Virus record (IMG/VR): IMGVR_UViG_2690316225_000008
Source of the DNA: a virus
Taxonomy: Duplodnaviria > Heunggongvirae > Uroviricota > Caudoviricetes
DNA length: 23,859 nucleotides
Strand: one strand, 5' to 3'
Part shown: positions 1 through 19,766 of the stretch, one piece after another
Layout of the letters: each line of letters opens with the position of its first letter
Numbering within the stretch: position 1 is the stretch's first letter
The notes under the pieces: model-generated
The model's database searches: none
The model's input: the letters and a program-made list of their open reading frames with translations, nothing else
Told to the model about the DNA's origin: nothing
Translations under genes and position numbers: made by a program

Positions 1-253
1 GCAGCCGCCGGTCGGCCTCGCTCAGCCAGGGCAGACCACCGGGATGACTGTGGACCAGTGCCACAATCTCCCCCTGCATCTCTGCCCGCAGCCAGTCTTC
101 CGGTGCAATACGAAAATACGCCTCCGGCTCTGTAGAGATATTCACACAAGGGATATACCGCTCCCCCTCCGGCGTTCTCACCACGAAGCCGCACGACTCC
201 GCAGGCGCACACCACCGGGCATGCGCCAGAATCGCTGATTCAGTCTGTGTCAT
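1..253 (-). CDS. K: Tail assembly protein K, N-terminal fragment (runs off window start)
   Basis: Start codon at 251-253; translation begins MTQTES...; near-identical at nucleotide level to K copies at 905-1358 and 1804-2257; resembles lambda gpK N-terminus. Confidence 0.7.
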   Translation of the reverse strand, partial: MTQTESAILAHARWCAPAESCGFVVRTPEGERYIPCVNISTEPEAYFRIAPEDWLRAEMQGEIVALVHSHPGGLPWLSEADRRL

Positions 254-263
254 AAACCGGGAT

Positions 264-859
264 TTACTGCGAAAGTTTATTAATGGAAAGGAAACCGCCA
301 AAATTAGCCACCATGCCGCGCATCTCACACCCGCGCATGCACTTGCTGCATCTGTCCTTACGGATATCGGTGGTGGGTTTATCGAACTCATCCGCCACAG
401 CCCCGCCCGTGTAACCACACTCATCAGAGCGGTAGGTCCACATACAGGTATTCGCCAGCATAATGCGACCGGGAAACAGCGCTCCGTCCGTCTCCGTCGG
501 TGTTGCCAGCACAAACGAGGCTGTCATGGCCGTCAGCTCTGACATCTGCTCCACCACCCAGCGGTCGCTCAGCTCCTGCTCCGGGTCCGCTTCCGGATTG
601 CCCGCCACAAAATTCACCGCATCCAGAAAACGGGCATACACCCGGCGGCGGACCACCGTGGCCCCCACCAGGCTCTGCAGGTCCTCCGCCATCCCGGTGA
701 CCAGACCAAACAGATTCGACACCGTCAGCGACGGTCTGGCACTGCTGCCCTTCCCGTTCATCTCAAAGCCGCTGCCCTCAATCGGGTACGCCTGATATTC
801 ACGCCCCTGCCAGGTAACCGGCTCCCTTTTTCATTCAGCTCATTGCAGAAAAAATACCG
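264..859 (-). pseudogene. L: Minor tail protein L, 3' portion; carries 1-bp C-run difference that breaks frame; cut by N at 860
   Basis: TAA stop at 264-266; C-terminal 165 aa match lambda gpL (…VGNFGGFLSINKLSQ); same C-run length change near 825 as copy 2268-2965 relative to in-frame copy at 5463-6145. Confidence 0.6.
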
Positions 860-860
860 N
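860..860. other. Assembly gap (single N)
   Basis: Literal n in sequence; flanking sequence changes identity abruptly. Confidence 0.95.
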
Positions 861-904
861 GGTGGTGTGCCGGGAGTGGAGCGTCACGGATAACGCCAGG
901 TACA
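861..904. repeat. 44-bp inverted copy of 3002-3045 (fragment of M' gene) abutting K
   Basis: 861-904 is the exact reverse complement of 3002-3045; it sits between an N and the K breakpoint. Confidence 0.85.
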
Positions 905-1358
905 GGTTCTGACCGTTGCGCCACCAGTCATCCTCACGCTCAAAATCCGGCATATCAATTCCCGCCAGATGGTAGGCATCCCGGAACAGCGTGTAACAGT
1001 CCGTCACCCCGTGCTCAAAGCGCCGTCCTGTCAGATGTGGCACACAGCGGAATTTATGAATTTCCCCCCGGCAGACCAGCCACCAGGACAGTGCACTTTT
1101 TATCTGCAGCCGCCGGTCGGCCTCGCTCAGCCAGGGCAGACCACCGGGATGACTGTGGACCAGTGCCACAATCTCCCCCTGCATCTCTGCCCGCAGCCAG
1201 TCTTCCGGTGCAATACGAAAATACGCCTCCGGCTCTGCAGAGATATTCACACAAGGGATATACCGCTCCCCCTCCGGCGTTCTCACCACGAAGCCGCACG
1301 ACTCCGCAGGCACACACCGCCGGGCATGCGCCAGAATCGCTGATTCTGTCTGTGTCAT
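905..1358 (-). CDS. K: Tail assembly protein K, N-terminal ~151 codons (3' end missing)
   Basis: Start at 1356-1358 (MTQTESAILAHARRCVPAESCGFVV…); JAMM/MPN-type motif HSHPGGLPWLSEAD; matches lambda gpK until …DDWWRNGQN, then sequence becomes the inverted M' fragment. Confidence 0.7.
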
Positions 1359-1363
1359 TGGAT

Positions 1364-1792
1364 TTACTGCGAAAGTTTGTTAATGGAAAGGAAACCGCCA
1401 AAATTAGCCACCATGCCGCGCATCTCACACCCGCGCATGCACTTGCTGCATCTGTCCTTACGGATATCGGTGGTGGGTTTATCGAACTCATCCGCCACCG
1501 CAGGACCGTTATACCCGCATTCATCTCCCCGGTAATCCCACATACAGGTGTTCGCCAGCATGATGCGACCGGGAAACAGCGCTCCGTCCGTCTCCGTCGG
1601 TGTTGCCAGCACAAACGAGGCTGTCATGGCCGTCAGCTCTGACATCTGCTCCACCACCCAGCGGTCGCTCAGCTCCTGCTCCGGGTCCGCTTCCGGATTG
1701 CCCGCCACAAAATTCACCGCATCCAGAAAACGGGCATACACCCGGCGGCGGACCACCGTGGCCCCCACCAGGCTCTGCAGGTCCTCCGCCAT
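1364..1792 (-). CDS. L: Minor tail protein L, 3' fragment (142 codons), truncated by N run
   Basis: TAA stop at 1364-1366; protein MAEDLQSLVG…CMWDYRGDECGYNGPAVADEF…INKLSQ is the same allele as 5463-6145. Confidence 0.7.
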   Translation of the reverse strand: MAEDLQSLVGATVVRRRVYARFLDAVNFVAGNPEADPEQELSDRWVVEQMSELTAMTASFVLATPTETDGALFPGRIMLANTCMWDYRGDECGYNGPAVADEFDKPTTDIRKDRCSKCMRGCEMRGMVANFGGFLSINKLSQ

Positions 1793-1803
1793 NNNNNNNN
1801 NNN
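1793..1803. other. Assembly gap (11 N)
   Basis: Run of n; K sequence resumes at exactly the same K breakpoint as at 905. Confidence 0.95.
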
Positions 1804-2257
1804 GGTTCTGACCGTTGCGCCACCAGTCATCCTCACGCTCAAAATCCGGCATATCAATTCCCGCCAGATGGTAGGCATCCCGGAACAGCGTGTAACAGTC
1901 CGTCACCCCGTGCTCAAAGCGCCGTCCTGTCAGATGTGGCACACAGCGGAATTTATGAATTTCCCCCCGGCAGACCAGCCACCAGGACAGTGCACTTTTT
2001 ATCTGCAGCCGCCGGTCGGCCTCGCTCAGCCAGGGCAGACCACCGGGATGACTGTGGACCAGTGCCACAATCTCCCCCTGCATCTCTGCCCGCAGCCAGT
2101 CTTCCGGTGCAATACGAAAATACGCCTCCGGCTCTGCAGAGATATTCACACAAGGGATATACCGCTCCCCCTCCGGCGTTCTCACCACGAAGCCGCACGA
2201 CTCCGCAGGCGCACACCACCGGGCATGCGCCAGAATCGCTGATTCAGTCTGTGTCAT
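1804..2257 (-). CDS. K: Tail assembly protein K, N-terminal ~151 codons (3' end missing at gap)
   Basis: Start codon at 2255-2257; MTQTESAILAHARWCAPAESCGFVV… allele (differs from 905-1358 copy at a few residues). Confidence 0.7.
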
Positions 2258-2267
2258 AAACCGGGAT

Positions 2268-2965
2268 TTACTGCGAAAGTTTATTAATGGAAAGGAAACC
2301 GCCAAAATTAGCCACCATGCCGCGCATCTCACACCCGCGCATGCACTTGCTGCATCTGTCCTTACGGATATCGGTGGTGGGTTTATCGAACTCATCCGCC
2401 ACAGCCCCGCCCGTGTAACCACACTCATCAGAGCGGTAGGTCCACATACAGGTATTCGCCAGCATAATGCGACCGGGAAACAGCGCTCCGTCCGTCTCCG
2501 TCGGTGTTGCCAGCACAAACGAGGCTGTCATGGCCGTCAGCTCTGACATCTGCTCCACCACCCAGCGGTCGCTCAGCTCCTGCTCCGGGTCCGCTTCCGG
2601 ATTGCCCGCCACAAAATTCACCGCATCCAGAAAACGGGCATACACCCGGCGGCGGACCACCGTGGCCCCCACCAGGCTCTGCAGGTCCTCCGCCATCCCG
2701 GTGACCAGACCAAACAGATTCGACACCGTCAGCGACGGTCTGGCACTGCTGCCCTTCCCGTTCATCTCAAAGCCGCTGCCCTCAATCGGGTACGCCTGAT
2801 ATTCACGCCCCTGCCAGGTAACCGGCTCCCTTTTTCATTCAGCTCATTGCAGAAAAAATACCGCTCACCACCCTGTACCGTCAGGTCGATTTCCCAGAGT
2901 ACCACCCGCGGTGACTGCTCTGATTTAACCGACTCGTTCAGACTTTCTTCGTGAATATCCTGCAT
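2268..2965 (-). pseudogene. L: Minor tail protein L, full length but with 1-bp deletion in a C-run (frame break near 2825); may be sequencing error
   Basis: 698 bp instead of 699; N-terminal 46 aa (MQDIHEESLNESVKSEQSPRVVLWEIDL…NEKG) then frame loss; C-terminal 165 aa in another frame match gpL. Compare ggctccc (2824-2830) with gcctcccc (6003-6010). Confidence 0.6.
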
Positions 2966-3306
2966 CAGTTCACCACCTGCTCAATCGTACAGCTGAAATC
3001 ACTGTACCTGGCGTTATCCGTGACGCTCCACTCCCGGCACACCACCCTCACCGTCCGGTTATGTTTCGGTGGTCGCCACAAAAAGGCACGGTAACCACCA
3101 TGCCAGGATAAAAATTCATCCAGCCAGCGCCGGGTTGACTCATCCGTCACCCGGAACACCACCTGAAACGTCTTCAGTTGAGGATTCAGTCCTGTGGGGC
3201 GACGCTGTTCATAACCGTCACCAAACCGCACCCTCACCACCGACGGCTTCTCACTCACCTGCATCCCTTCACGCGGGACCAGATGCAGCGTTTTTATCTC
3301 AGCCAC
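2965..3306 (-). CDS. M: Minor tail protein M, divergent allele (M')
   Basis: 113 aa; …VRFGDGYEQR…FLWRPP…VVCREW… shares the lambda gpM core motifs (VRFGDGYSQR, FLWTPP) but is clearly a different allele from 6145-6474; stop overlaps L start (ATGA-type coupling). Confidence 0.8.
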   Translation of the reverse strand: MAEIKTLHLVPREGMQVSEKPSVVRVRFGDGYEQRRPTGLNPQLKTFQVVFRVTDESTRRWLDEFLSWHGGYRAFLWRPPKHNRTVRVVCREWSVTDNARYSDFSCTIEQVVN

Positions 3307-5460
3307 TCAGTATTCCTCCGTCACGTCGCATGGACAGCATCACCGCCTGCACCCGCTGGTCAATCAGTTGCACAAGGCTGCCCGCAGCTTCCGGCCCTAT
3401 CTGGCCATTAGTCCCGTCATTCTGAATGGCGATATGGTAGACCGGGGAATACACCAGACCTGCACTGCCGTTCATACTGCCCACCGCTCGCACACCCAGC
3501 GAGCCATCCGCCGCCCGGGTCAGGGGCATAATGGCTTCAGGACCGGCCTCCCCCATCAGTCCCGCCCCTTTTGCAAAGGCAAAGTACGTGGGCGTATCCA
3601 CAATGCTGTTGCTGTACGCACTCAGGTTTGCCGAGGTATACACGCCGCCTTTTGCATTGGCCACCGCACCGCCCAGCCAGTCACCAATGCTGCCAATAAA
3701 TCCTCCCGCACCGGACATACCGTTTGCCGCCGTCTTAATTCCGTTGACAATCGCGGCATTCATAAGAACTTTTGAGATTTCCTGCAGTACGGATGAGGCC
3801 CAGTTGCGCCATTCCACTTTGTTTCCGTTCAGCATCTCCGTGATGTTATTCACCATCCCTGAGATACCCTCCGTCGCAAGCTGTGCTGCCTGTGAAGCGT
3901 AATCGGATGCATTGTCCACCCAGTTACTGAGCCCCTCCTGCAAGCCTTTCTGCCAGTCCGCACGCTGCGCATCCGATTCGGCATAAAAGGCTGCCTGGTC
4001 CTTAAGGCGTTCGCTCAGATACTGCGCGTTCTGTGCCCGTGCCTGTCTGTAAAAATCCTCACTGATATCCCCGGTCTGATACTGAGACTGAAGGTCCGCA
4101 TCCTTCTGGCGGAAGCTGTCGCGGATCTGCTGCAACTCCCGCATGCGTTCCCTGGCTCGTTCTCCCTGCTCGTATCCCAGCAGTTCGGCTTCATTTGATG
4201 CACGCGCAGCCACATTATCATTCTTCAGGGTCTCTTCCCGGGATCGCAACTGTTCCCGGATTTTTTGCTGGTCAATCAGGGCCGCGTTACGCAGCTGTTC
4301 CTGCTTCTGCATCTCCGTCAGGGTTTTCAGTTCGCCCTGCGCAGTCTGGTACTTCAGCTTCGCCAGCTCTGTATTCTGACCCGCCAGTGCCAGTTGCTCT
4401 TTCTGCTGCTTCAGTAGCCGGGAAAAACTGTCTTCCGCTTTTTCCGTCTCTGATTTTCCACCCCGGGATTTAGGTTTGTTCGCCTCGTTATTACGCCAGG
4501 CTTCCAGAGCATTACTGATATAACGCTGTCTCGCCTCCTGATACGAATCCCCCACAAAACCAAGGTCATCCGCCGCATACCCCAGCCGGGCACGCTCTTT
4601 TTCCTCCCCCTTCAGTCGGGACAGGGCCAGCTCACGTTCTGTTTTTGTCAGGGCGCTCTGCTGTTTATCATCCAGGGTGGCCTGCGGCAGCCGTAACGGT
4701 ACATTCACCAGTCCCTGACGCTGCTGAAGCAGTTCATTCCCCAGCCCCAGCAGACGGTTGAATTCCGTATGCTGACCGTTCATAACCAGCATGGACTGGT
4801 ACACCTTATTCTGCTCTGCCGCCTGCTGACGAATTAACGCCACACGACGGTCTTCCAGCCCGGCAAGCACATCCTGAATGGACTGCGCTTTTTCCTGCAT
4901 CTGTGCCAGACGGGACTGCTCAACGGCAAGCTGCTCTGTTGCCTGAGAAAGCCCTTCCGTTACGGTCTTCACCGATGTCAGATGGTTTATCATGAATCCG
5001 TCACCGGTTGTCCAGCCAGGGTTAGCCAGAACATACTGATATCCAGCGATTTTTTCCTGCAGGGATTTCACCCGGCTGGCCTGTTCATCAATCAGCCGGT
5101 TCTGCTCTGCCAGCGCCGCCCGTGTTCGTCCTTCATTATCTGAGGCTTCAGGCAAAGACATTGACGGCGTTTTATGCGCGATTTCATCTATCGTCAGTGC
5201 ATACTGGCGCGCTGACTCCCTGGCCTGCTCCTGATTCTGGTACAGCGTATACCATGCTGCTGCCCCCAGCATCACCAGTCCGGGTACGCCACCAACCAGT
5301 CCCAACGCACCAGTCATCAGACGTGAGCCCACCGCCGTTGTACTGTTCAGCGCATTCTGGGCTGCGGTTCTGGCAGCAATATTTCTGTTCAGGCGTTCCT
5401 GTGTGGCCGCCAGACGGGCTTCTGCAGCAATCTGCATCTCCGTCCCGCGGGCTGCCGCCA
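3299..5460 (-). CDS. H: Tail tape measure protein, second allele (H'), C-terminal ~720 codons; 5' end lost at N 5462
   Basis: Long coiled-coil-rich ORF; C-terminus (…IQNDGTNGQIGPEAAGSLVQLIDQRVQAVMLSMRRDGGILSG) parallels gpH C-terminus at 6471; followed by M' and L as in lambda. Confidence 0.75.
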
Positions 5461-5461
5461 C

Positions 5462-5462
5462 N
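5462..5462. other. Assembly gap (single N) joining L 3' end to tape-measure interior
   Basis: Literal n; produces an artefactual 948-aa fused ORF (3299-6145) in the track. Confidence 0.95.
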
Positions 5463-6145
5463 TTAATGGAAAGGAAACCGCCAAAATTAGCCACCATGCC
5501 GCGCATCTCACACCCGCGCATGCACTTGCTGCATCTGTCCTTACGGATATCGGTGGTGGGTTTATCGAACTCATCCGCCACCGCAGGACCGTTATACCCG
5601 CATTCATCTCCCCGGTAATCCCACATACAGGTGTTCGCCAGCATGATGCGACCGGGAAACAGCGCTCCGTCCGTCTCCGTCGGTGTTGCCAGCACAAACG
5701 AGGCTGTCATGGCCGTCAGCTCTGACATCTGCTCCACCACCCAGCGGTCGCTCAGCTCCTGCTCCGGGTCCGCTTCCGGATTGCCCGCCACAAAATTCAC
5801 CGCATCCAGAAAACGGGCATACACCCGGCGGCGGACCACCGTGGCCCCCACCAGGCTCTGCAGGTCCTCCGCCATTCCGGTGACCAGACCGAACAGATTG
5901 GACACCGTCAGCGACGGGCGGGCACTGCTGCCCTTCCCGTTCATCTCAAAGCCACTGCCGTCAATCGGGTATGCCTGATATTGCCGCCCCTGCCAGGTAA
6001 CCGCCTCCCCTTTTTCATTCAGCTCATTGCAGAAAAAATACCGCTCACCACCCTGTACCGTCAGGTCGATTTCCCAGAGTACCACCCGCGGTGACTGCTC
6101 TGATTTAACCGACTCGTTCAGACTTTCTTCGTGAATATCCTGCAT
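5463..6145 (-). CDS. L: Minor tail protein L (227 codons; last ~5 codons lost at gap)
   Basis: MQDIHEESLNESVKSEQSPRVVLWEIDLTVQGGERYFFCNELNEKGEAVTWQGRQYQAYPIDGSGFEMNGKG… collinear with lambda gpL; start overlaps M stop. Confidence 0.85.
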
Positions 6146-6474
6146 CAGTTCACCACCTGCTTAAACTCCGCGCTGAATTCAACCCGCAGCATGCGAACCC
6201 GTGATGACCAGGCGGCACAGGTCACCTTTATCTGCCGCCAGGCATAAGGCGGTGTCCACAGAAACGCCTTCCAGCCACCGTGCTCTGCCAGGAATGCCTC
6301 CAGATGTCGGGCCTCCTCCCGGGTCACGGAAAGCGTCACACGGTATGTTTTCAGGTCAGCATTCAGCCCCGCCGCCATACGCTGCGAATACCCGTCACCA
6401 AAACGCACTTCACGCACCGATGGCTGCGAGTTCACCTCCATATCCGGCTTCACTTTCCAGCGAAATGTTTTCAT
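6145..6474 (-). CDS. M: Minor tail protein M
   Basis: 109 aa, MKTFRWKVKP…VRFGDGYSQR…FLWTPPYAWRQIKVTCAAWSSRV…VEFSAEFKQVVN; near-identical in length and sequence to lambda gpM. Confidence 0.92.
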   Translation of the reverse strand: MKTFRWKVKPDMEVNSQPSVREVRFGDGYSQRMAAGLNADLKTYRVTLSVTREEARHLEAFLAEHGGWKAFLWTPPYAWRQIKVTCAAWSSRVRMLRVEFSAEFKQVVN

Positions 6475-9050
6475 CGCCTGCCTCCGGAAAAGACGCCGCC
6501 ATCACGCATCTGCGCCTGAATCTCATCCTGCGCCCCCTTGCGGGCCATGTCATACACCGCCTTCATCAGCTGCGGCCCCGCCTGTCCGTTGGTGCCGTCG
6601 TTCTGAATCACCACGTGATTGTTCTGATTAAAACTAATGCCTTCCGCCCGCCGCATCTGCGCCGGACTTCCGGCACCGCCCACATAACCACCTTCCGCAT
6701 ACCCGCGCATCAGACGATACAGGTTGCCGACGCCAATCCGGCTGGTTGCCTCCTTCGTGAAGACAAACTCCCCGCGGTGGACAATACCGGCAGGTTCGTA
6801 TTTGCCACCGGTTCCCGTAAATCCTCCGGTCGCGAAATGGAAGTTCGCCGCCGCAGCCTGAATGGCCGTCCCCGTGGAGGCAGACGCCCCACCACCGAAA
6901 GCACCACCCATGGCGCTGCCAATACTCCCGACAATCCCCACCATGGCCTGCTTCAGAAAAATCTCTGTCAGCATGGAGAGCACAGAACGGGTGAAACCAC
7001 GCCAGCTCTGTTCGCTGCCGGTCAGCATCGCTGCCATATTCTGTGCAATACCGTCAAAGGTCTGCGTGGCCACGCTTTTAACCTGCGAAAAACTGTCCGT
7101 CGCACTTTCTGCCCACTCGCCCCAGCCGGACTTCAGACCGGCCATCCAGCTTCCACGAAGCTGCTCCTCCGCAGACCAGGTGTTCTTCAGTGCAGATGTG
7201 GCCTTCGCCAGCGCATCCGGATTATCACCGTACACGTCACGAAGGCGCTGCGATTCCGACTCCCGCTGTGCCTGACGGTCCGTCAGCCCCCGGGCTTTTG
7301 CGCTGATTGCAGCCTGCTTCGCACTCTGCTGCTGTTCAAACCGCACAGCCTGATTTGCCAGCTCATTCAGCCGTTTCTGGTATTCAACCTTGTCACCCAG
7401 GTCAGCCAGCTGGCGTTTGTACTCCAGCGTCTCTTGCTCATGGGCCAGCAGGGATTTCTCCTGTGCAGACAGCTGGCGACGTTGCGCCGCCTCCTCCAGT
7501 ACCGCGAACTGACTCTCCGCCTTCCACAAATCCCGGCGCTGCTGGCTGATTTTCTCATTCGCTCCGCTGTGCTTCTCCAGCGTCCGGAGCTCGGTTTCAA
7601 GCGCCAGCAGCGCCGCATGCGTCAGGTCTTCCTGACGCTCACCGGCTGACACTTTAACACCTGACGACTTCGGCTTTTTCAGCGTCGATTCATAATCCTT
7701 TTTCGCCGCCGCCATCAGCGTGTTGTAATCCGCCTGCAGGATTTTCCCGTCTTTCAGGGCCTTATTCAGCTCTTCCTGCCGGTTAGTATATTTCTCCAGC
7801 GGCGTCAGCAGACGCTCATACGCCTTCTGCGCCTCTCCGGTATACTTCAGCTGTGATGCGTCCCGTTCGGCCCGGTCCCTGGTAGCCAGTTCACCGGCTT
7901 TTTCCATATCCGACTGCAGCGTGGCCGCTGCCAGCCCCAGACGGGCATTTTCCCGGTCATTCCATGCGCCCTGAAGGTTGGCCCGGAAAGAAGAGGTTTT
8001 ACCGCGGCGCTGGCTCCGGCTCTGGTACCACTGCCATTTTTTATCCGCCTCATCAAATGCCTTCTGCGCACTGGCGAGCATATCCGCTGAGGACTCAGGA
8101 CGACCGATATCCAGAATGGCATCCCACATCGATTTGAATGCCTTCCCGGTTTTATCCGCCCAGGTCTCCAGTGTCCCCATGTTTTCTTTCAGGCGACGGG
8201 TCTGCTCATCAAAGCCTTTCGTGGCGATATCGTTCGCCGCCTGTAAGGCCCCGGCCTCATCACCGGAACGCTGCAGCTGCGCAACATACGCAATCTGCTC
8301 TGCCGTCACGTTACGGAACTGGCGCGCCATCGCAATCAGCCCCGACGTAGAGTCGGTGGTCAGTTTTCCGAAAGCCTCTGCAACCTTGTCCACCTCCACA
8401 CCGGATGCAGAAGCAAAACGCGCGACACTCTGGTTGATGGCATCAAACTGTTCACCACCACGCACACCGGCATTCACCAGGGCTGCCAGTGACTCACTCG
8501 CCTGGTTAAACGTCAGCCCTGCGGCCTGTCCGGCTCTGGAGAGCGTCAGCATGCGATCGGCAGTCAGTCCGGACTGATTACCGGAAAGAACCAGGGTTTT
8601 ATTAAACGCTGAAAGCGTGGAATCCCCCTGGTACCAGGCGTACGCCAGCGCACCTGTCGCCACCGCCAGCGAGGTGACCCCGACCATCGGCAGGGTGATC
8701 GCACCGGCAAGCCCCCTGAACATGGGGATCATCCCGCCGAAGGAGTCCTTCACCTGACCGCCCTGTTGCAGCAGGATCAGCCAGGGATTCTGACCACCGG
8801 CAAGCTGCGTGGCGATATCCGTAAACTGTGCGGGCAGGGTTCGCATGGCCGCTTTATACTGCCCGACGGAAATCCCGGCTTTTTGTGCAGCCAGCGCCTG
8901 GCGGCTCAGGCCCTGTTCAACAGCACTGGCGGTTTTTCTGGCGTCAGTCTCCAGTCCGGAAAAATGACGCCTTACCCGGCTCATCTGCTCATCGAAACGG
9001 ACCGCATCCAGACTCAGATCAATAACAAGATCACCAACCGGCTGGGACAT
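6471..9050 (-). CDS. H: Tail tape measure protein H
   Basis: 859 aa; MSQPVGDLVIDLSLDAVRFDEQMSRVRRHFSG… collinear with lambda gpH (853 aa) through to …QMRDGGVFSGGRR. Confidence 0.93.
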   Translation of the reverse strand: MSQPVGDLVIDLSLDAVRFDEQMSRVRRHFSGLETDARKTASAVEQGLSRQALAAQKAGISVGQYKAAMRTLPAQFTDIATQLAGGQNPWLILLQQGGQVKDSFGGMIPMFRGLAGAITLPMVGVTSLAVATGALAYAWYQGDSTLSAFNKTLVLSGNQSGLTADRMLTLSRAGQAAGLTFNQASESLAALVNAGVRGGEQFDAINQSVARFASASGVEVDKVAEAFGKLTTDSTSGLIAMARQFRNVTAEQIAYVAQLQRSGDEAGALQAANDIATKGFDEQTRRLKENMGTLETWADKTGKAFKSMWDAILDIGRPESSADMLASAQKAFDEADKKWQWYQSRSQRRGKTSSFRANLQGAWNDRENARLGLAAATLQSDMEKAGELATRDRAERDASQLKYTGEAQKAYERLLTPLEKYTNRQEELNKALKDGKILQADYNTLMAAAKKDYESTLKKPKSSGVKVSAGERQEDLTHAALLALETELRTLEKHSGANEKISQQRRDLWKAESQFAVLEEAAQRRQLSAQEKSLLAHEQETLEYKRQLADLGDKVEYQKRLNELANQAVRFEQQQSAKQAAISAKARGLTDRQAQRESESQRLRDVYGDNPDALAKATSALKNTWSAEEQLRGSWMAGLKSGWGEWAESATDSFSQVKSVATQTFDGIAQNMAAMLTGSEQSWRGFTRSVLSMLTEIFLKQAMVGIVGSIGSAMGGAFGGGASASTGTAIQAAAANFHFATGGFTGTGGKYEPAGIVHRGEFVFTKEATSRIGVGNLYRLMRGYAEGGYVGGAGSPAQMRRAEGISFNQNNHVVIQNDGTNGQAGPQLMKAVYDMARKGAQDEIQAQMRDGGVFSGGRR

Positions 9051-9902
9051 ATCTCACACCTCCCGGAATCCCCGCTGAAGCCATCATTAATGCGACATCA
9101 TCCTCGCTGACATCCGCCACATCCGCAGACGATAAAATCTCACGCCCTCCGTCCCCACCAAACCGTACGCCTCCGGCAAGTCCTGCCGCTTTCTGCATCA
9201 GCATTTTTTCCTCATCCGGCATCTCCGTCTGCGCTTTCTCACGCCGGGGGGCAAGCAGACTGAAATCAGAGGGATGCATATCCGGATCGCAAAAAAACAG
9301 GCTGAGTACAGCGTACGTCAGCCCGGAAAAATGCATATCCAGCTGGGTATCGTGAAAATAATGCATGCGGTAAAAATGTCGCCAGTCGGCATATTCGGTG
9401 GATGTCATCCCGGCAAGCATGGCGCGCCAGTCAGGCCTCCCCATCTCACGCGCCAGTCTGAGGGCAAAATTCAGCTCGCCGTCGAAGACTTTCCCGCAGA
9501 AAAATCATCATCAGTCAGCGCGTTATTTTTCGCCACTTCGGTAATATCCGTATCCACATGAACAGGCCCGCTCATCCCGGACAGACGCAACACCACATCT
9601 TCCGCCCGGGCAATGGCATCAGCAGGCCAGGTGGTCAGGACTTCCTGCTCAATCTGCATCACAGCCTCATTCATTGACGGTGACCCCGTTTTCTGCGGAT
9701 GGTTATGCCACAGGGACATCGCCACCAGAAACGCGCCGGTTCTGACGAGATCTTCCACGCTTACCTGCAGGTTGCCGCTGGATTCTGCCTGTTCTGCACG
9801 CCGTTTCAGGAGGGCAAGATGCTCAATACGCTGCAGCGCAGACAATTCGGAAAGCGTGACAGACACACCGTTATATTCAAATTGTTCTGTTTTCAGAAAC
9901 AT
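9031..9902 (-). CDS. T: Tail assembly chaperone G-T fusion made by programmed -1 frameshift (T part 9031-9495)
   Basis: After GGGAAAG (complement of 9489-9495) the -1 frame reads VFDGELNFALRLAREMGRPDWRAMLAGMTSTEYADW… = lambda gpT; T frame has no own RBS-proximal start. Confidence 0.85.
9471..9902 (-). CDS. G: Tail assembly chaperone G
   Basis: 143 aa ending …DDDFSAGKSSTAS, as lambda gpG; contains slippery heptamer near its 3' end. Confidence 0.9.
   Translation of the reverse strand: MFLKTEQFEYNGVSVTLSELSALQRIEHLALLKRRAEQAESSGNLQVSVEDLVRTGAFLVAMSLWHNHPQKTGSPSMNEAVMQIEQEVLTTWPADAIARAEDVVLRLSGMSGPVHVDTDITEVAKNNALTDDDFSAGKSSTAS
9489..9495 (-). promoter_or_regulatory. Slippery heptamer G GGA AAG for G/T -1 ribosomal frameshift
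   Basis: Plus-strand ctttccc = minus-strand GGGAAAG located 6 codons before G stop, same motif and position as lambda. Confidence 0.8.
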
Positions 9903-9915
9903 GTATGACCTCCGT

Positions 9916-10668
9916 TTACCCTGCAGCGCCTGCTTCAGTAACGGTGACTTCAGCTACCGTGGCAAACTGACCATTACCGGAAATCACGGGGATACTCACT
10001 TTTCCAGCCTTAACCCCCGTCACAGTGATCACCATATCTTTCACAGCAATGGTTCCCGTTGACGGATCGGCGGAAACCGCTCTGAACGTCTTGTCGGTTG
10101 CACTTTCCGGCTCAAAAGAAACAGTCAGGGTGGTTGTTTTTCCTTTTTCCACGGTACCGGATGTCGGTGTCACCTTAATTGCAGTGGCCGGCGTAATTTC
10201 GCTGCGTTCTTCCGCCACGGAAGGTTTACCCACGTTGGTCACTTTCACCGTACGGGTGATCACTTCCTTCGCCGTTACGGCCTTACCGATACTGCTGACC
10301 CAGCCACGGAACACATCCACCGTGCCGTTCGGGAAACGGATTTTATAGGCCCGCACATCCCCGCTTTCAAACCAGCCTATAAGCCCTTTCTGACCTTCTT
10401 CTCCCGGTTTCCAGGCCAGCGTAAAACTGGTATCTCCTGCAGACTTCTGCCCCTGCCCGGTCGCGCTCCAGTCCGCGTCTTCATCATCCAGGTAGTTATC
10501 ATCGTAGGATTCTGCCGTCATCTCGCCCGGCGTCAGATCCTTCACCTTAGCCAGTCGCTGCCAGTCATCATCTGACAACGGGTTTGCATAAGCATCACCC
10601 TTGCCGGTGTAAACCCACAGAGTGGTACCGGCACCTTTTACCGGCGCCAGGGGATTTGGTGTTGGCAT
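9916..10668 (-). CDS. V: Major tail protein V with C-terminal Ig-like domain
   Basis: 250 aa; N-terminal part matches lambda gpV; C-terminal ~90 aa beta-rich T/V/S segment typical of the gpV Ig-like domain. Confidence 0.9.
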
Positions 10669-10675
10669 ATCGTCC

Positions 10676-11071
10676 TCACATCTCGTATGTAATGGAATAA
10701 GTCAAATCTGCAGAGCTCCATAACGCCATATCGTCATCACGACGATAGTCATAGCCCTGCTGAACCATCGTGGTAATCATCCCTGCCAGTGCAGGGATCG
10801 CGGACATCGCCGGATAAATCCGGGACTCCATCCACGAATCCAGCTCTGAATCCGGCACCTGAGCAGGCAGGAAAACTTCAATATGCAGTGTGGCCCGCCA
10901 GGTATCCGCATCCAGCTCTTCACCGGTATACTCTGCATCCGTCAGATAAACCGCGACCGCGGGAAAATCCTCTTCGTCAAAAACAACGGGGCGACCATCA
11001 AACAGCGTCGCCCCGTGTTCATGCAGCTCCAGTGCATCCAGCACTGCAGCACGGATATCAGTATGTTTCAT
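10676..11071 (-). CDS. U: Tail terminator protein U
   Basis: 131 aa, same length as lambda gpU; overlaps Z stop. Confidence 0.88.
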
Positions 11072-11643
11072 CGTTTTATCGCAATCCTCAGTTGTTGTTT
11101 CAGCGCATATGCCAGTTCTCCGGGCAGGCGTTCACGCCGGATACGGTCAACGTTTTCATCAAACGCCTGTTTCAGTGGGGCCGCCATCGGAATTTTAACC
11201 ACCTGAATGGGAAGACGATTACGCTTTTTCCTTCCTTTATCGTCATTGCCCTTCGCATACCGGGCTTCTGGCAAACGTTGCATAACATGCCAGCGCCCAT
11301 TATTTAATCGCTGGATGAATGCCCGCTGATAACGATGCTGACCGGCTTTAAGTATGCTGTTCGGACGATGACCAAGCATCCTGATCCCCAGCTTAATAGC
11401 AGGGAGATCACCGCGGTTAACGATAATTCTGGCATTCGGATTTCTGACCGTCGCCCGTTTCAGTCTGGACCGTTCCTTTACCAGTTTCCGGCTCACCCTG
11501 GTCTCCCGGGCAACCTGTGATGAAGACTGATTAATCGCCGTTGTAGCCACGCGGTTAATAGCCATTGCTGAAGCCGACGGAATGGCGTTTTTACGAACCC
11601 GGCTCAGATTTTCAATCGCCTGATCAAGCCCTTTTATCGCCAT
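11068..11643 (-). CDS. Z: Minor tail protein Z (tail completion)
   Basis: 191 aa; MAIKGLDQAIENLSR…ARETRVSRKLVKERSRLKRATV…ERIRRERLP… matches lambda gpZ. Confidence 0.9.
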   Translation of the reverse strand: MAIKGLDQAIENLSRVRKNAIPSASAMAINRVATTAINQSSSQVARETRVSRKLVKERSRLKRATVRNPNARIIVNRGDLPAIKLGIRMLGHRPNSILKAGQHRYQRAFIQRLNNGRWHVMQRLPEARYAKGNDDKGRKKRNRLPIQVVKIPMAAPLKQAFDENVDRIRRERLPGELAYALKQQLRIAIKR

Positions 11644-11657
11644 AATTCACCCTGCGT

Positions 11658-12011
11658 TTATCGTCGCCGGTTAACTGCGGGTGGTTGCCCACGGTTCAGC
11701 CAGAGATAACAACTGCCCCCGTCATCCGGAGAAACACGATCCACCCAGAACGTCTCACCATTAATGGTCAACGTGTCACCACGCCGCACGGCACGAACCG
11801 TATCCGTCCGCACAAATAATGACGGGCTGCTTCCTTCAATACGGATCCCACTACTGGCAAACCCCAGCGACTCCGGATCGTCAAAAACCCCCTGAACTTC
11901 GCCGCCACGCTGTGCACCGGAGGTGAACTGCGCACTGATGCCCATCACTTCAACAATCGTACTGTCCACCCCGGCAAGGGCGGCATCAAAGGCATTCTGA
12001 AAATCACGCAT
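11658..12011 (-). CDS. FII: Head-tail connector protein FII
   Basis: Start at internal ATG 12009-12011 (MRDFQNAFDAAL…) gives 117 aa as in lambda; …GVFDDPES…SSPSLFVRTD…RRGDTLTI…FWVDRVSPDDGGSCYLWL…PPAVNRRR; start overlaps FI stop (ATGCGTGA). Confidence 0.88.
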   Translation of the reverse strand: MRDFQNAFDAALAGVDSTIVEVMGISAQFTSGAQRGGEVQGVFDDPESLGFASSGIRIEGSSPSLFVRTDTVRAVRRGDTLTINGETFWVDRVSPDDGGSCYLWLNRGQPPAVNRRR

Positions 12012-12378
12012 AAACAGCCATTCCACCATCAACGTGTGTTTTTGCATCTGAGGACATAATCAGAATCACCCGACCAACATCCGCAAGCTCAACGGATTCC
12101 CCCGTTTCACCATCAACGCCACAGAGATGGAGGCAGGTCAGAACTCTGATGCGCGTTAACGCGCCGGATGTTTCCTCACGAACATCATGAGCCGCGTTTT
12201 CCCTCTCCCGGATATCCATATTCATAACCTGTACATCATCGCCGGATGACTGCATTTCCTCTTCCCATTCTGCCACCCGCTGCGCTATCTCTGCGGCACT
12301 CCCGGATATATCCGGCTCACGCCCCAGAATCAGGGCCAGTTCATCAAGCCGTTTCAGATTTTGCTCTTTCGTTGCCAT
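12004..12378 (-). CDS. FI: DNA packaging protein FI (alternative upstream start at 12426)
   Basis: Position between E and FII; acidic protein; preferred start MATKEQ at 12376-12378 has GGGGGA Shine-Dalgarno 5 nt upstream. Sequence is divergent from lambda gpFI, call mostly by synteny. Confidence 0.7.
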   Translation of the reverse strand: MATKEQNLKRLDELALILGREPDISGSAAEIAQRVAEWEEEMQSSGDDVQVMNMDIRERENAAHDVREETSGALTRIRVLTCLHLCGVDGETGESVELADVGRVILIMSSDAKTHVDGGMAVYA

Positions 12379-12429
12379 ATCATCCCCCTGTGAAAAAAGA
12401 CACGGGGGCATTTCGCCCCCGCTCACGGA

Positions 12430-13458
12430 TTATTTCACCTGTACCACCACAAACTCATCCGGGTCCGGCAACACCATCAGCGGCGCGGACTGCGTCATGG
12501 TAAATTCACGGGCGGGATCCCCCACCGTCAGCCAGTGTTTCGGATAACGGGAAGAGGCCACCACACCTTCGGACAACGCCTGCGCATCCTGAATGGCACC
12601 ATAGCAACGAATGCCCTCTGCTGCCGTATTCCCCAGGACCAGCGAGCCCTCAGGCAGATAACGTTTTTCGGTACCGTCCTCTGCCACATAAGACGTTTTT
12701 GCCACCACAATGGCCAGATCGCCGTAATACCCTTTGAAGGACACCACCGCGCCCAGGTCTTTCACCGCTGTTTCGAGTTGAGAATTTGAACCGCGACGGG
12801 TATCCAGTTTTTCGCGGAACAATTTAAAGCCATTCAGCAGACGCCAGACGGTACCGTCCATAATGGCAATATTCACAAGACCGCTGGCCTGGTCGCAGTA
12901 GAGGTCAAGATCATGTGTAGGATCGAACGTGTCACGATCCTGTTTTGACCACTCCTTACCACTACCCTGAGTGATGTTATTCTTCGTCGACCTGCCAAAA
13001 TCGACCTCAATTTTCTCGAACTGGTCTCCTTCCATCGTGTATTTGCCATACAGCACGGCATTCACCGCCTGCATTTCTTCCACCTGGACAATGGCGTGCT
13101 CTTCCTGTTTGAGGTTATCAGTGATGATACGCAGACGACGGTAGGCCGGGTCGTTCAGCTGAGCCGGATCTTCACCGGGAAGACGCTCAACCGCCTGCTG
13201 GTAATTAAATTCGTGTTTCGGCTTGACGTAGCCCGGACGTAACACGCGGGTTTCACCACCACGATGACGCAGCACTTTTCCTTCAACAACCGGGGAAACA
13301 TAGGCCGCCACCGGCGTTTTTCCGGTAATTTTGTCCAGCATCACCTCTTCGGTATGGAAATTCACCGTACGGCGGAAAAACAGCTCCAGAAACAGCGCAC
13401 GAAATTTCACTTTTTGTTCGGTATAACCGAGTAACTGGCGGGTCGTAAACAATCCCAT
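12430..13458 (-). CDS. E: Major capsid protein E
   Basis: 342 aa; …PGYVKPKHE…DPAYRRLRII…QVEEMQAV…KYTM…DTRRGSNSQLETAVKDLG…TGDPAREFTMTQSAPLMVLPDPDEFV matches lambda gpE (341 aa). Confidence 0.93.
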   Translation of the reverse strand: MGLFTTRQLLGYTEQKVKFRALFLELFFRRTVNFHTEEVMLDKITGKTPVAAYVSPVVEGKVLRHRGGETRVLRPGYVKPKHEFNYQQAVERLPGEDPAQLNDPAYRRLRIITDNLKQEEHAIVQVEEMQAVNAVLYGKYTMEGDQFEKIEVDFGRSTKNNITQGSGKEWSKQDRDTFDPTHDLDLYCDQASGLVNIAIMDGTVWRLLNGFKLFREKLDTRRGSNSQLETAVKDLGAVVSFKGYYGDLAIVVAKTSYVAEDGTEKRYLPEGSLVLGNTAAEGIRCYGAIQDAQALSEGVVASSRYPKHWLTVGDPAREFTMTQSAPLMVLPDPDEFVVVQVK

Positions 13459-13515
13459 AAATCAGTTCCTTTCATTCAGAAATCAGTCAGGCCACCGCGG
13501 TGGCCTGATAACGTG

Positions 13516-13863
13516 TTACGGCAGCGCCGCGTGACTCAGGGCACTGCCGGCAAAGGCATTTGCCTTTTTGTGTTCATCCACACTGTCAGGCCAGCGGATT
13601 GCCTCCGTCGCAAAGGTCCCCGACTTGTAATACGTCAGTACCGTCTCTGTGCCTTCAAGCGGCAGTACCAGTATGCCAACCGCACTACCGGCTTTCTGTC
13701 CGTCCCAGACCACCAGTTTCCCGGTAGCTTCATCCAGCATCAGGGGCGTCAGTGCCGGTGTTGCCGAGGAAATCCCGCTGCTGCCTGTGGCGGTATGAGC
13801 CGGATCATTACCGGCAAAAATACGTACTTCCGCACGCTGTTCAGTGATGGTTTTCGTTACCAT
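13516..13863 (-). CDS. D: Head decoration protein D
   Basis: 115 aa; …DPAHTAT…TPLMLD…KLVVWDG…AVGIL…YYKSGTF…FAG matches lambda gpD. Confidence 0.9.
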   Translation of the reverse strand: MVTKTITEQRAEVRIFAGNDPAHTATGSSGISSATPALTPLMLDEATGKLVVWDGQKAGSAVGILVLPLEGTETVLTYYKSGTFATEAIRWPDSVDEHKKANAFAGSALSHAALP

Positions 13864-13899
13864 ATTGTAAAAACCTCCTGTTGATGGTCAGCACTGACT

Positions 13900-15405
13900 T
13901 CATGGCATAGCCATGAGCATTTTCACGTCCGCATCACCGTCTGCTGACGTCTGTGGCACGCCACCCTGTACCGCTGCCGGTGAATGGTTCGCCATGATGC
14001 GTTCAAACAGGGCGGTTGTGGATGCAGAGACCGGTTCTGCCTTACCTGATCCCGCAGCCAGCACAGCCCGGGCGCTCTCCACAGTTATTCCCGGGCAGGC
14101 AGCCAGCTGTTCAGCCTGCGCCTCAGCCCCTTTTGCCTCATCCAGTGCCATGATCTGATCACGGAGTGAGGGTCCGGCATCCGCCTGCGGTGAAGCAGCC
14201 AGGATCGGGCGGGCTTTTTCCACCGTCATCTCCGGCATCGCCGCCAGCGTTGCCGCCAGTTGTTCACGACCTTTCGCTTCTTCACACGCCATAATGCGAT
14301 CGGCTTCACTCTGCGCGGATGCCACCGGCTGCTGTGGTGCCGCCGCGGCCAGAATCGCCCGGGCCTGTTCAACGCTCATGCCCTGTTGTCCTGCCAGCAT
14401 CGTGGCAAGCTGTTCACGTCCTTTCGCTTCCTGGCATGTCAGGATCCCCATCACTCGCTGGTTCTCCTGCGCGGCGGCTTCCGTTGCAGTTAATTGCGGC
14501 ATAGTGCCTCCTCTGACATTACTGTTCAGCGCCGTGGCCATCACACTGATGGCATCCGACGCATTGATTAATTCATCCGCCAGCCCGGCCTCAATGCCGG
14601 ACTGACCTTCAAAAACGGCGGCCTCTGTTCCCGTGACAGCATCAACAGACAGACCGGTATACATCGCTACTTTTTCAGCAAACATCCGGCGCGCCGCATC
14701 AATGCGCTGTTGCATGTCCTGGCGAACCTCTGCCGGCAACGCTTCAAACTGATTGCCATCCACCTTGTGCGCCCCTGAGTAAATCAGCGTGATATCAACA
14801 CCGGCCTGCGCCAGATGACCGGCATAGCTGACATGGCTCATCATCACGCCAATGGAGCCGATACGGGATGTCTGGGTAACCAGCCGTCGGGAGCAGGCCG
14901 ACGCCAGCAGCATGGCTGCAGAGCAGGCCGTGTCATTGCACAGTGCCCAGACCGGCTTCTGCTGACGGAGGCGGTAAATCATGTCAGCGCAGTCAAACGC
15001 GCCGGCGGCCTGCCCGCCCGGACTGTCAATGTCCAGCAGTACGCCCCGCACCTGGCTATCCGCCATTGCCTGCTGAAGACAGGCGACAATGCCGTCATAG
15101 CCTGTCATTCCGGAAAATGGCCGCATACCCCCCAGCCGGTGCACCAGCGTGCCGGTCACCGGCAGTACAGCAATACCGTTCACCACCCGGTAAACACGGG
15201 CCGGTCGTTTACCTCCGGCCATGTACTCGTCCGTTTCAGCCAGCATTCCGGGAGCATCAAACTGTACCTGCTGTTGTGGTACCGAAAGACTTGATGCCCC
15301 CATCTCGCGCCCGAGCGCGCAAAAGAAAACCCGCGCATAGGCGGGCTCCAGAAGCAGCGGTTCATTGAATGCTGCGGCAATAATGTGTGAAAGATTACGT
15401 CTCAC
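13900..15405 (-). CDS. C: Head maturation protease C (S49/ClpP-like) with C-terminal scaffold (Nu3-like) region
   Basis: 501 aa; N-terminal two-thirds has S49 peptidase-like core (…VLLDIDSPGG…NDTACSAAMLLASA…); C-terminal third is Ala/Glu-rich with three repeats, consistent with an in-frame nested scaffold. Confidence 0.85.
   Translation of the reverse strand: MRRNLSHIIAAAFNEPLLLEPAYARVFFCALGREMGASSLSVPQQQVQFDAPGMLAETDEYMAGGKRPARVYRVVNGIAVLPVTGTLVHRLGGMRPFSGMTGYDGIVACLQQAMADSQVRGVLLDIDSPGGQAAGAFDCADMIYRLRQQKPVWALCNDTACSAAMLLASACSRRLVTQTSRIGSIGVMMSHVSYAGHLAQAGVDITLIYSGAHKVDGNQFEALPAEVRQDMQQRIDAARRMFAEKVAMYTGLSVDAVTGTEAAVFEGQSGIEAGLADELINASDAISVMATALNSNVRGGTMPQLTATEAAAQENQRVMGILTCQEAKGREQLATMLAGQQGMSVEQARAILAAAAPQQPVASAQSEADRIMACEEAKGREQLAATLAAMPEMTVEKARPILAASPQADAGPSLRDQIMALDEAKGAEAQAEQLAACPGITVESARAVLAAGSGKAEPVSASTTALFERIMANHSPAAVQGGVPQTSADGDADVKMLMAMP
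14050..14454 (-). repeat. Three in-frame tandem repeats (~50 codons, ~148 bp period) in the C-terminal region of gene C
   Basis: Protein repeats …QEAKGREQLATMLAG…SVEQARAILAA / …EEAKGREQLAATLAA…TVEKARPILAA / …DEAKGAEAQAEQLAA…TVESARAVLAA; DNA repeat visible e.g. gttcacgacctttcgcttc (14262) vs gttcacgtcctttcgcttc (14411). Confidence 0.75.
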
Positions 15406-16987: not shown

Positions 16988-17190
16988 AACCTCACTCCCA
17001 GCGGACGACGGCGACGTCGGGTTGTCCCCAGTACCGACTCCGCATCATTGATCGCCCGGTTAAGCTCATCCAGAGAAGCCGCCGTATATTCAATTCTGCG
17101 ACCATCTTTCTGGACAGACACCACCCGTTTACCGGTTAATAAATCAAGGCGCGCCTGACGTAGCGCCTGTAGTTCAGCGACTGTAACCAT
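16984..17190 (-). CDS. W: Head-tail joining protein W
   Basis: 68 aa, same length as lambda gpW; …LLTGKRVVSVQKDGRRIEYTAASLDEL… matches gpW core. Confidence 0.88.
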   Translation of the reverse strand: MVTVAELQALRQARLDLLTGKRVVSVQKDGRRIEYTAASLDELNRAINDAESVLGTTRRRRRPLGVRL

Positions 17191-19072: not shown

Positions 19073-19073
19073 A

Positions 19074-19583
19074 TTATTCAGTTGTTACTCTGATATATTC
19101 ATCGAGTAAATCCGGTAATTTATCCCCTGCCCGCGCACACTGATTTGCCCCCTTAGCAATAAGGGTTTTCAGATGGTCAAGATGGCGCGGTGTTAAATCA
19201 GGAAACTGTCGCTGCATGGATAAAGGGATGGAATCAAGCGTACTGGATAACGCCATTGCCAGCTTACTGAGGGCAAAAATACAGAACCCGGTGTCAATAA
19301 GTTTTCCTTTTGACACCTCATTTTTTAACTGCTGTGTAACAGCCTGTTCTGCTGTCAGTTCCCATCTGGCAATAAGCAATTTCTCCTCATAGTCGTCTTC
19401 GCTATCGCCATCAGGCACATCGTTTTTACTTCTCCTCAGATACGATATGTAAAAATCGCGCCAGGCATCCAGATCCAGTTGCCCTCGCTTATTCGATATC
19501 GGGGCACCCGGCAATTTCTGCAATCTGCGAAGCTGGCGATCGGTCAGACTTAAATGCCTGGCAACTTCAGTCTGCGTAGCCAC
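19074..19583 (-). CDS. Nu1: Terminase small subunit Nu1 (C-terminal half lambda-like, N-terminal DNA-binding domain divergent)
   Basis: 169 aa; C-terminal …FCIFALSKLAMALSSTLDSIPLSMQRQFPDLTPRHLDHL… resembles lambda gpNu1; apparent GTG start at 19581-19583 preceded by GAGGTGAGGAG; stop overlaps A start. Confidence 0.85.
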   Translation of the reverse strand: MATQTEVARHLSLTDRQLRRLQKLPGAPISNKRGQLDLDAWRDFYISYLRRSKNDVPDGDSEDDYEEKLLIARWELTAEQAVTQQLKNEVSKGKLIDTGFCIFALSKLAMALSSTLDSIPLSMQRQFPDLTPRHLDHLKTLIAKGANQCARAGDKLPDLLDEYIRVTTE

Positions 19584-19630
19584 TCCTCACCTCGCAAAAA
19601 CTCTCACCTCACAATCACAACAAAACCGGT

Positions 19631-19730: not shown

Positions 19731-19766
19731 ATCCCGGAAAATTTTCATAAATAGCGAAAACCCGCG

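What the first reader, a model, noticed from the sequence alone, without database searches (positions are those of the whole stretch)
1..6145. Left 6.1 kb is a chain of repeated K/L/M/tape-measure fragments joined at N runs: probable scaffold chimera
N characters occur at 860, 1793-1803 and 5462, and each sits exactly where gene identity switches (L to K, K to L, tape measure to L). K is cut at the same codon (after …WWRNGQN) in both internal copies, and 861-904 is an exact inverted copy of 3002-3045. The track therefore shows artefactual fused ORFs (3299-6145, 948 aa; 1364-2518, 384 aa). 1-859 is near-identical to 2005-2863. This is what a collapsed or mis-scaffolded multi-copy prophage tail region looks like; the order K-L-K-L-K-L-M'-H'-L-M-H is unlikely to be real.
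Basis: seen in the sequence. Interest (0 to 1): 0.5.

Follow-up and report, generated by a model that had tools for sequence, protein, structure and literature searches.

The report
Mis-scaffolded prophage tail gene fragments
The repeated tail-gene chain at the left end of this E. coli draft contig is an assembly artefact: pieces of two or three near-identical prophage tail regions were strung together at gap characters, so it is not a real gene arrangement.

Summary
The window is the whole draft record CYBB01000043.1 (E. coli, GCA_001283265.1). N characters at 860, 1793-1803 and 5462 split the left 6 kb into four blocks.

- **Block D (5463-23859)** is 100% identical, in one piece, to a lambda-like prophage of complete genome NZ_CP142915.1.
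- **Block B (896-1792)** is the natural leftward continuation of D in that genome. It overlaps D by 413 identical bases.
- **Block C (1804-5461)** is 99.9% colinear with a different, HK97-like prophage. In complete genomes that hold both prophages it lies about 450-500 kb away.
- **Block A (1-859)** repeats 2005-2863 of C with one mismatch.

None of the three N junctions, nor the N-free K/antisense-M' join at 896-905, has both flanks adjacent in any of 5,426 complete E. coli genomes. The join's 47-mer is also absent from three contig collections.

Three block edges stop exactly at bases that differ between the two prophage types. The N-free join rests on a 10-base overlap. Both features fit the published GapFiller rules, though the software used for this assembly is not known.

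The 948-aa and 384-aa ORFs are fusion artefacts. Interest is low; this is not a real feature.

The parts
1..859 (-). Block A: 5' 84 codons of K' (253..2, cut by the record end) plus L' lacking its first ~118 nt (859..264). Type 2 (HK97-like prophage) allele. Repeats 2005-2863.
   Evidence: 99.88% to 2005-2863. 99.9% to L002 9202-10061. Pfam Prok-JAB and Phage_tail_L. All type-distinguishing sites carry the type 2 allele.
860..860 (.). Single N: residual scaffold gap between blocks A and B.
   Evidence: The flanks are adjacent in 0 of 5,426 complete genomes.
861..905 (+). 45-nt exact inverted copy of 3002-3046 (antisense of M'). Its last 10 nt (896-905, CCAGGTACAG) are also genuine K sequence, so this is a false join on a 10-nt overlap.
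   Evidence: The join is in 0 of 5,426 genomes. The 47-mer across it is absent from viral, genome and metagenome contig collections.
896..1792 (-). Block B: type 1 K truncated after ...WWRNGQNLYL (1358..896) and the 3' 143 codons of type 1 L (1792..1364). It is the true leftward continuation of block D, and 1380-1792 duplicates 5463-5875.
   Evidence: 100% to L001 8001-8897, while D = L001 8485-12122. 1380-1792 = 5463-5875 at 100%. The right edge stops one base before a T/C type difference.
1793..1803 (.). 11-N gap. Read from block C it covers one A/G type difference plus 10 bases (TCCAGGTACA). Read from block B its first position is a T/C type difference.
   Evidence: The flanks are adjacent in 0 of 5,426 genomes.
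1804..5461 (-). Block C: contiguous piece of a type 2 prophage. K' truncated after WWRNGQN (2257..1804); L' with a 1-nt frameshift at 2828-2830 (2965..2268); M' (3306..2965); the C-terminal ~720 codons of an HK97-type tape measure (5461..3299).
   Evidence: 99.9% colinear in one piece with NZ_CM129889.1 and NZ_CM132280.1. Pfam. Indel and mismatches listed.
5462..5462 (.). Single N between C and D. It sits on the position of a G/A type difference (= 1379 / 2283).
   Evidence: The flanks are adjacent in 0 of 5,426 genomes.
5463..23859 (-). Block D: ordinary lambda-like (type 1) prophage from L (6145..5463, lacking its last 5 codons and its stop), M (6474..6145) and tape measure (9050..6471) through tail, head, portal, terminase and lysis genes to a cut SASA-family esterase gene at the record end.
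   Evidence: 100.0% identity in one piece to NZ_CP142915.1 2017154-2035550. Annotation.
3299..6145 (-). Artefactual 948-aa ORF: type 1 L fused through N 5462 to the type 2 tape measure C-terminus.
1364..2518 (-). Artefactual 384-aa ORF: K' fused through the 11-N run to the type 1 L C-terminal part.

Best explanation
The left 5.46 kb of this draft E. coli record is a false duplication made during short-read assembly.

**What the genome really holds (shown by comparison).** The source genome carries at least two lambdoid prophages whose K-L tail genes are 95-97% identical. Their M, tape-measure and head genes are unrelated. Type 1 is lambda-like with an 859-aa tape measure. Type 2 is HK97-like with a tape measure of about 1,080 aa. 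The real type 1 locus is D followed by B, then the rest of K, then I and J. C belongs to a distant locus. A is either a redundant copy of C's locus or a piece of a third near-identical prophage.

**How the artefact arose (inferred).**
1. The assembler broke contigs inside the shared K-L repeat.
2. A read-pair scaffolder chained the fragments in the order A-B-C-D, leaving N gaps.
3. A gap closer extended each edge base by base until the next base was ambiguous between the two prophage copies. This left 1 or 11 N.
4. The gap closer closed one gap falsely on a 10-base overlap, which joined K to an antisense stub of M'.

Nothing here functions biologically. The fused ORFs are not genes.
For: 1. 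Every block is ordinary colinear prophage DNA in complete genomes. D is 100% over 18,397 nt. B is 100% over 897 nt and overlaps D by 413 nt in the same genome. C is 99.9% over 3,658 nt in another prophage.
2. In the three complete genomes that hold both prophage types at high identity, the two lie about 450-500 kb apart on the same strand (coordinates).
3. Zero of 5,426 complete genomes have the flanks of any of the four junctions adjacent. No genome covers 80% or more of 1-9100 in one place. No phage record does. The junction 47-mer is absent from three contig collections.
4. N characters lie at three of the four junctions with 0 offset.
5. Edges coincide with type-distinguishing bases: B's right edge, D's left edge (N 5462 is on the G/A site), and C's left edge plus exactly 10 nt.
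6. The window is a whole draft WGS record. Another ENA draft, LM996033.1, has the same kind of single-N-joined L-K / M'-L'-K' duplication.
7. The published GapFiller rules match the anatomy: trim 10 nt at gap edges, extend one base at a time and stop on ambiguous overhangs, close a gap on an overlap of at least 10 nt (PMC3446322). The authors of a Velvet+SSPACE+GapFiller pipeline state that these greedy tools can make false joins (PMC5320598).
8. The pattern matches the 'duplicated contained contig' and 'duplicated overlapping contig' classes of Kelley & Salzberg (PMC2864568).
Against: - No reads were available, so coverage and pairing across the junctions were not checked.
- The assembler, scaffolder and gap closer used for GCA_001283265.1 are not known to me. 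The SSPACE/GapFiller attribution is inference from anatomy only.
- Three edges (A right at 859, B left at 861, C right at 5461) do not fall on a type 1/type 2 difference and are unexplained.
- How a 35-nt antisense-M' stub came to lie between two gaps is not explained in detail.
- A differs from C at one base (133 T vs 2137 C). Both alleles occur naturally, so A may not be a simple duplicate of C.
Confidence: 0.95

Rival explanations
1. This is a real rearrangement. Recombination between co-resident prophages produced genuine tandem partial K-L duplications and a K/M' inversion junction, and the N characters are merely ambiguous base calls.
For: Lambdoid prophages in E. coli are paralogous and numerous (median 3 places per genome, up to 14), so there is ample substrate for recombination. 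N 5462 does sit on a polymorphic site, so it could be read as an ambiguity code.
Against: All junctions are absent from 5,426 complete genomes and from three contig collections. Three of the four junctions carry N, one of them 11 N long. Genes are cut mid-codon with no coherent product. B and D overlap as one locus does in a complete genome. The only N-free junction rests on 10 nt of homology in inverted orientation and is followed 35 nt later by another gap.
Confidence: 0.02
2. It is the same artefact made a different way. Contigs were ordered against a reference genome, or simply concatenated, and joined with N, rather than linked by read pairs and gap-filled.
For: All four blocks have the same orientation. 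Their order (A, B, C, D) equals the order of their left ends when projected on a single K-L-M-H reference locus: B starts at L001 8001, C at 8010, D at 8485. C's right edge lies in unique tape-measure sequence, which read pairs should have linked to the rest of that tape measure and not to D.
Against: The gap lengths (1, 11, 1) and the edges stopping on paralog differences, plus the exact +10 nt, fit a gap closer better. The 10-nt false join is not explained by plain concatenation.
Confidence: 0.15
3. Blocks A and C come from two different type 2-like prophages, so the source genome has at least three K-L copies. A is then a mis-placed fragment and not a redundant copy of C.
For: The only A/C difference (133 T vs 2137 C) is a natural polymorphism. 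T is found in NZ_CM129889.1, and C in three independent assemblies that carry the same L' frameshift. Genomes of this kind often hold many such prophages.
Against: A and C match at 858 of 859 bases and share the rare C3 frameshift. One base could be a consensus error or a mixed-copy call.
Confidence: 0.35
4. The K/antisense-M' join at 896-905 comes from a chimeric template-switch molecule (library or amplification artefact) that extended a contig end, and not from a gap closer's overlap rule.
For: The join is in inverted orientation, rests on short microhomology, and links sites about 1.2 kb apart in the type 2 prophage (L002 ~9000 vs 10200-10244). From my own knowledge, this is typical of polymerase template-switch chimeras.
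Against: The K side is the type 1 allele further in, while the stub is type 2 M'. The overlap is exactly the 10-nt default of GapFiller.
Confidence: 0.2

Closest known systems
False segmental duplications from mis-assembly (Kelley & Salzberg 2010, PMC2864568): duplicated contained contigs and duplicated overlapping contigs
   Same: Near-identical sequence was assembled twice and placed at adjacent positions in one scaffold, separated by gaps. A is contained in C. B and D overlap right up to their ends. Another contig lies between the overlapping pair.
   Different: There the two copies are diploid haplotypes. Here they are paralogous prophage modules of a haploid bacterium, and blocks from different loci are interleaved.
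False joins by greedy scaffolding and gap closing (SSPACE / GapFiller, as used in the Velvet-based pipeline of Page et al. 2016, PMC5320598; GapFiller, PMC3446322)
   Same: Residual N gaps, edges that stop where the next base is ambiguous between copies, an 11-N run equal to 1 + 10 trimmed bases, and a closure on a 10-nt overlap.
   Different: I could not establish that these programs were used for GCA_001283265.1. Three edges are not explained by the rules.
Lambda-type tail tip module H-M-L-K-I-J of lambdoid prophages
   Same: Blocks D+B and C each show the canonical order, overlapping start/stop codons and Pfam families.
   Different: The window's chain K-L-K-L-K-L-M'-H'-L-M-H is not a variant of this module. 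It is a concatenation of truncated pieces.
Short-read assembly failure at paralogous prophages of pathogenic E. coli (Shaaban et al. 2016, PMC5359411)
   Same: That paper states that short reads cannot resolve the repetitive and paralogous features of prophages. The K-L repeat here is such a feature.
   Different: That paper describes fragmentation in general, not this specific false duplication.

Membership tests
Assembly false duplication (Kelley & Salzberg classes) | A contig is wholly contained, at near identity, in a nearby contig of the same scaffold. | tested here: met
   1-859 = 2005-2863, 858/859 identical. Both map to the same L002 interval.
Assembly false duplication (Kelley & Salzberg classes) | Two nearby contigs overlap, with the alignment reaching the contig ends. 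| tested here: met
   1380-1792 (right end of B) = 5463-5875 (left end of D), 413/413, 0 nt from both ends. The two are contiguous in NZ_CP142915.1.
Assembly false duplication (Kelley & Salzberg classes) | Gap characters separate the duplicated pieces. | tested here: met
   N at 860, 1793-1803 and 5462, exactly at block edges.
Assembly false duplication (Kelley & Salzberg classes) | Mate-pair and read-depth evidence shows the copies derive from one locus. | not testable with these tools
Genuine structural rearrangement or tandem duplication | Uninterrupted sequence across the junctions. | tested here: not met
   Three of the four junctions are N. The fourth is a 10-nt overlap followed by a gap 35 nt further on.
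Genuine structural rearrangement or tandem duplication | The junction is seen in independent genomes or assemblies. | tested here: not met
   0 of 5,426 complete genomes for each junction. 0 matches in the viral, genome and metagenome contig collections. 0 phage records.
Lambda-like tail module (H-M-L-K) | Gene order H, M, L, K on one strand, with Pfam tape measure, Phage_min_tail, Phage_tail_L, and JAB/NlpC-P60 K. | tested here: met
   Met separately for D+B and for C. The chain as a whole does not meet it.
SSPACE/GapFiller product | Documented use of these programs for this assembly. | not testable with these tools
   Only the anatomy agrees with the published rules. No assembly metadata was available.

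The most novel reading that the evidence does not exclude
The source isolate really carries a scrambled prophage in which illegitimate and homologous recombination between two co-resident lambdoid prophages produced tandem truncated K-L units and a K/antisense-M' junction. On this reading the N characters are only low-quality base calls.
Probability: 0.02. Interest if true: 0.25.

Novelty: not a real feature. Interest (0 to 1): 0.04.

Why it matters
It matters only as quality control.

- The 948-aa, 384-aa and 172-aa ORFs, and the apparent three to four copies of K and L, should not enter protein databases, pangenomes, prophage counts or gene-copy analyses as real.
- The gene calls on record for this contig already include the 948-aa and 172-aa fused products.
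- A second ENA draft shows the same pattern. Single-N junctions inside lambdoid tail genes may therefore be a recurrent, easily screened artefact in short-read E. coli assemblies.

Tried and rejected
- **Real tandem duplication or inversion.** Rejected: all four junctions are absent from 5,426 complete genomes, from phage records and from three contig collections.
- **A loose end.** A 150-nt query over 861-1010 gave 2 genomes with at least 80% coverage. The tighter 80-nt junction query gave none. I read the two as K alignments running a few bases further, not as the junction. They were not listed, so I did not inspect them.
- **An RNA or tRNA feature explaining the repeats.** None found.
- **All six gap-side edges falling on type 1/type 2 differences.** Only three do. 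The edges at 859, 861 and 5461 remain unexplained.
- **Finding the study or assembly method.** A literature search for the accession found only a paper that lists CYBB01000052.1 as E. coli.
- **A as a strict duplicate of C.** Weakened, which shows the single difference is a natural polymorphism.
Full report
**What the sequence shows.** The window has 13 N characters: one at 860, eleven at 1793-1803 and one at 5462. They delimit four blocks: A 1-859, B 861-1792, C 1804-5461 and D 5463 onward. All genes are on the minus strand.

Self-comparison gives:
- A = 2005-2863 of C (858/859 identical)
- B 905-1792 ~ C 1804-2696 (96.8%)
- B 1380-1792 = D 5463-5875 (413/413)
- C 2284-2981 ~ D 5463-6161 (95.6%)
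- an exact 45-nt inverted repeat, 861-905 against 3002-3046

The inverted copy is 45 nt, not 44. In block B the genuine K sequence runs 9 nt beyond ...WWRNGQN (to NLYL, position 896), so the 'same codon' cut is really a 10-nt stretch, CCAGGTACAG, shared by K and antisense M'.

**Where the blocks belong.** Block D to the end of the window (18,397 nt) is 100.0% identical, in one piece, to a lambda-like prophage of the complete genome NZ_CP142915.1 (annotation). In that genome the sequence left of D is exactly block B (896-1792 = L001 8001-8897, 100%). It overlaps D by 413 nt and continues into the rest of K, I, sodC and J. Block C is 99.9% identical and colinear with a different prophage in NZ_CM129889.1 and NZ_CM132280.1. 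That prophage has a 1,080-aa HK97-type tape measure and an HK97-like head module. Block A maps inside the same interval as C.

I call the two prophages type 1 (D, B) and type 2 (C, A). A site-by-site table shows B and D are purely type 1, A is purely type 2, and C is type 2 at every site except 2137. In the three complete genomes that hold both types at high identity, the two lie about 450-500 kb apart on the same strand (coordinates).

**Are the junctions real?** For each of the three N junctions and the N-free K/antisense-M' join, I searched a short query centred on the junction against 5,426 complete E. coli genomes. Thousands of genomes match one flank or the other, but none has both flanks adjacent. 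No genome covers 80% or more of 1-9100 in one place; the best hits cover 72% of the query by folding it onto a single 4.1-kb H-M-L-K locus. No phage record has the arrangement. The 47-mer across the N-free join is absent from the viral, genome and metagenome contig collections.

**Where the window comes from.** A look-up of the truncated L' product found that the window is the entire 23,859-bp record CYBB01000043.1 of assembly GCA_001283265.1. This is a draft E. coli WGS set (CYBB01000052.1 is cited as E. coli in PMC7315355). The gene calls on record for this contig already include the 948-aa and 172-aa fused products. Another ENA draft, LM996033.1, shows the same kind of structure: H-M-L-K(partial), a single N, then M'(3' part)-L'-K'-I', a single N, then a tape-measure fragment. 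Its two L-K copies are 97.5% identical.

**How it most likely arose.** Three of the six edges that face a gap coincide with bases that differ between type 1 and type 2.
- B ends at 1792, one base before a T/C difference.
- N 5462 occupies a G/A difference, and D starts right after it.
- Read as the extension of C, the 11-N run is exactly one A/G difference plus ten bases, TCCAGGTACA.

The GapFiller paper describes matching rules (PMC3446322). It trims 10 nt at each gap edge. It extends one base at a time and applies a majority-ratio rule to ambiguous overhangs. It closes a gap when the two extensions overlap by at least 10 nt. The false join at 896-905 is a 10-nt overlap. A widely used Velvet+SSPACE+GapFiller pipeline states that these greedy tools can make false joins and that N gaps mark read-pair joins (PMC5320598).

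I therefore infer four steps:
1. Contigs broke in the 95-97% identical K-L repeat.
2. A scaffolder chained the fragments.
3. A gap closer extended edges until it met paralog differences.
4. The gap closer closed one gap wrongly.

The artefact itself is well supported. The attribution to these particular programs is inference, because I have no assembly metadata. A reference-guided ordering of contigs would give the same block order, since the blocks are sorted by their left ends on a single K-L-M-H locus.

The result corresponds to the 'duplicated contained contig' (A in C) and 'duplicated overlapping contig' (B/D) classes of false duplication described by Kelley & Salzberg (PMC2864568). It also illustrates the stated inability of short reads to resolve paralogous prophage features (PMC5359411).

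**What remains open.** The edges at 859, 861 and 5461 do not fall on a type 1/type 2 difference. They might reflect further prophage copies in the source genome. The origin of the 35-nt antisense-M' stub between two gaps is not explained in detail; a chimeric template-switch molecule is an alternative. The single A/C difference (133 T vs 2137 C) is a natural polymorphism: T occurs in NZ_CM129889.1 and C in three independent assemblies with the same L' frameshift. A may therefore be a fragment of a third near-identical prophage rather than a redundant copy of C. In either case it is mis-joined.

**Verdict.** This is not a biological feature. The scaffold interleaves truncated pieces of at least two prophage tail modules: type 1 is D+B, and type 2 is C with or without A. 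It creates false extra copies of K and L and three fused ORFs. Interest is very low except as a quality-control flag. The only novel reading not strictly excluded is a real scrambled prophage, which I put at about 2%.

Noticed in passing
window 2828-2830 (= 824-826): L' of the type 2 prophage has a C4-to-C3 run (G4-to-G3 on the coding strand...AATGAAAAAGGGAGC...). This frameshifts L after about 46 codons into a 67-aa ORF and a 165-aa ORF. The same 165-aa product is encoded on 14 contigs, including Logan assemblies of unrelated runs and other NCBI drafts. It is therefore probably a real allele (a defective or cryptic prophage) and not an error of this assembly. The complete genome NZ_CM129889.1 has the intact C4 form.
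   Followed up: partly
window 133 vs 2137: This is the only difference between blocks A and C (T vs C; Thr vs Ala in K'). Both alleles occur naturally in type 2-like prophages, which hints at a third K-L copy in the source genome.
   Followed up: partly
L008 (LM996033.1 of GCA_000951915.2) 4221-7218, N at 5659 and 8383: A second ENA draft has two L-K copies (97.5% identical) joined at a single N, and a further single N followed by a tape-measure fragment. This is the same class of artefact, which suggests it recurs in short-read E. coli assemblies.
   Followed up: partly
window 2982/6162 and leftward: There is a sharp mosaic boundary. The two prophages are 95-97% identical through K and L, but they lose all detectable nucleotide similarity at the L start / M stop. 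M, the tape measure and the head genes are unrelated (lambda-like vs HK97-like). This is ordinary lambdoid mosaicism, and it is the cause of the assembly problem.
   Followed up: yes
window 23750-23859 (right end of the record): The record ends inside a SASA-family carbohydrate esterase gene, downstream of the holin/lysozyme/Rz1 lysis genes of the type 1 prophage. The left end (position 1) is inside K'. Both record ends therefore lie in prophage genes.
   Followed up: no
window 861-1010 (query): Two complete genomes gave at least 80% coverage of this 150-nt query, but none did for the tighter 80-nt junction query. They were not listed, so I could not inspect them. Most likely they are K alignments that run a few bases further.
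   Followed up: no
window 2867-2875 and 3040-3048; 2874-2880 and 3002-3008: Short direct motifs (CACCACCCT, CTGTACC) recur in L' and M' next to the ends of the 45-nt inverted piece and next to the true continuation of block A. They may have helped spurious short overlaps, or they may be coincidence. I saw this by reading the sequence.
   Followed up: no
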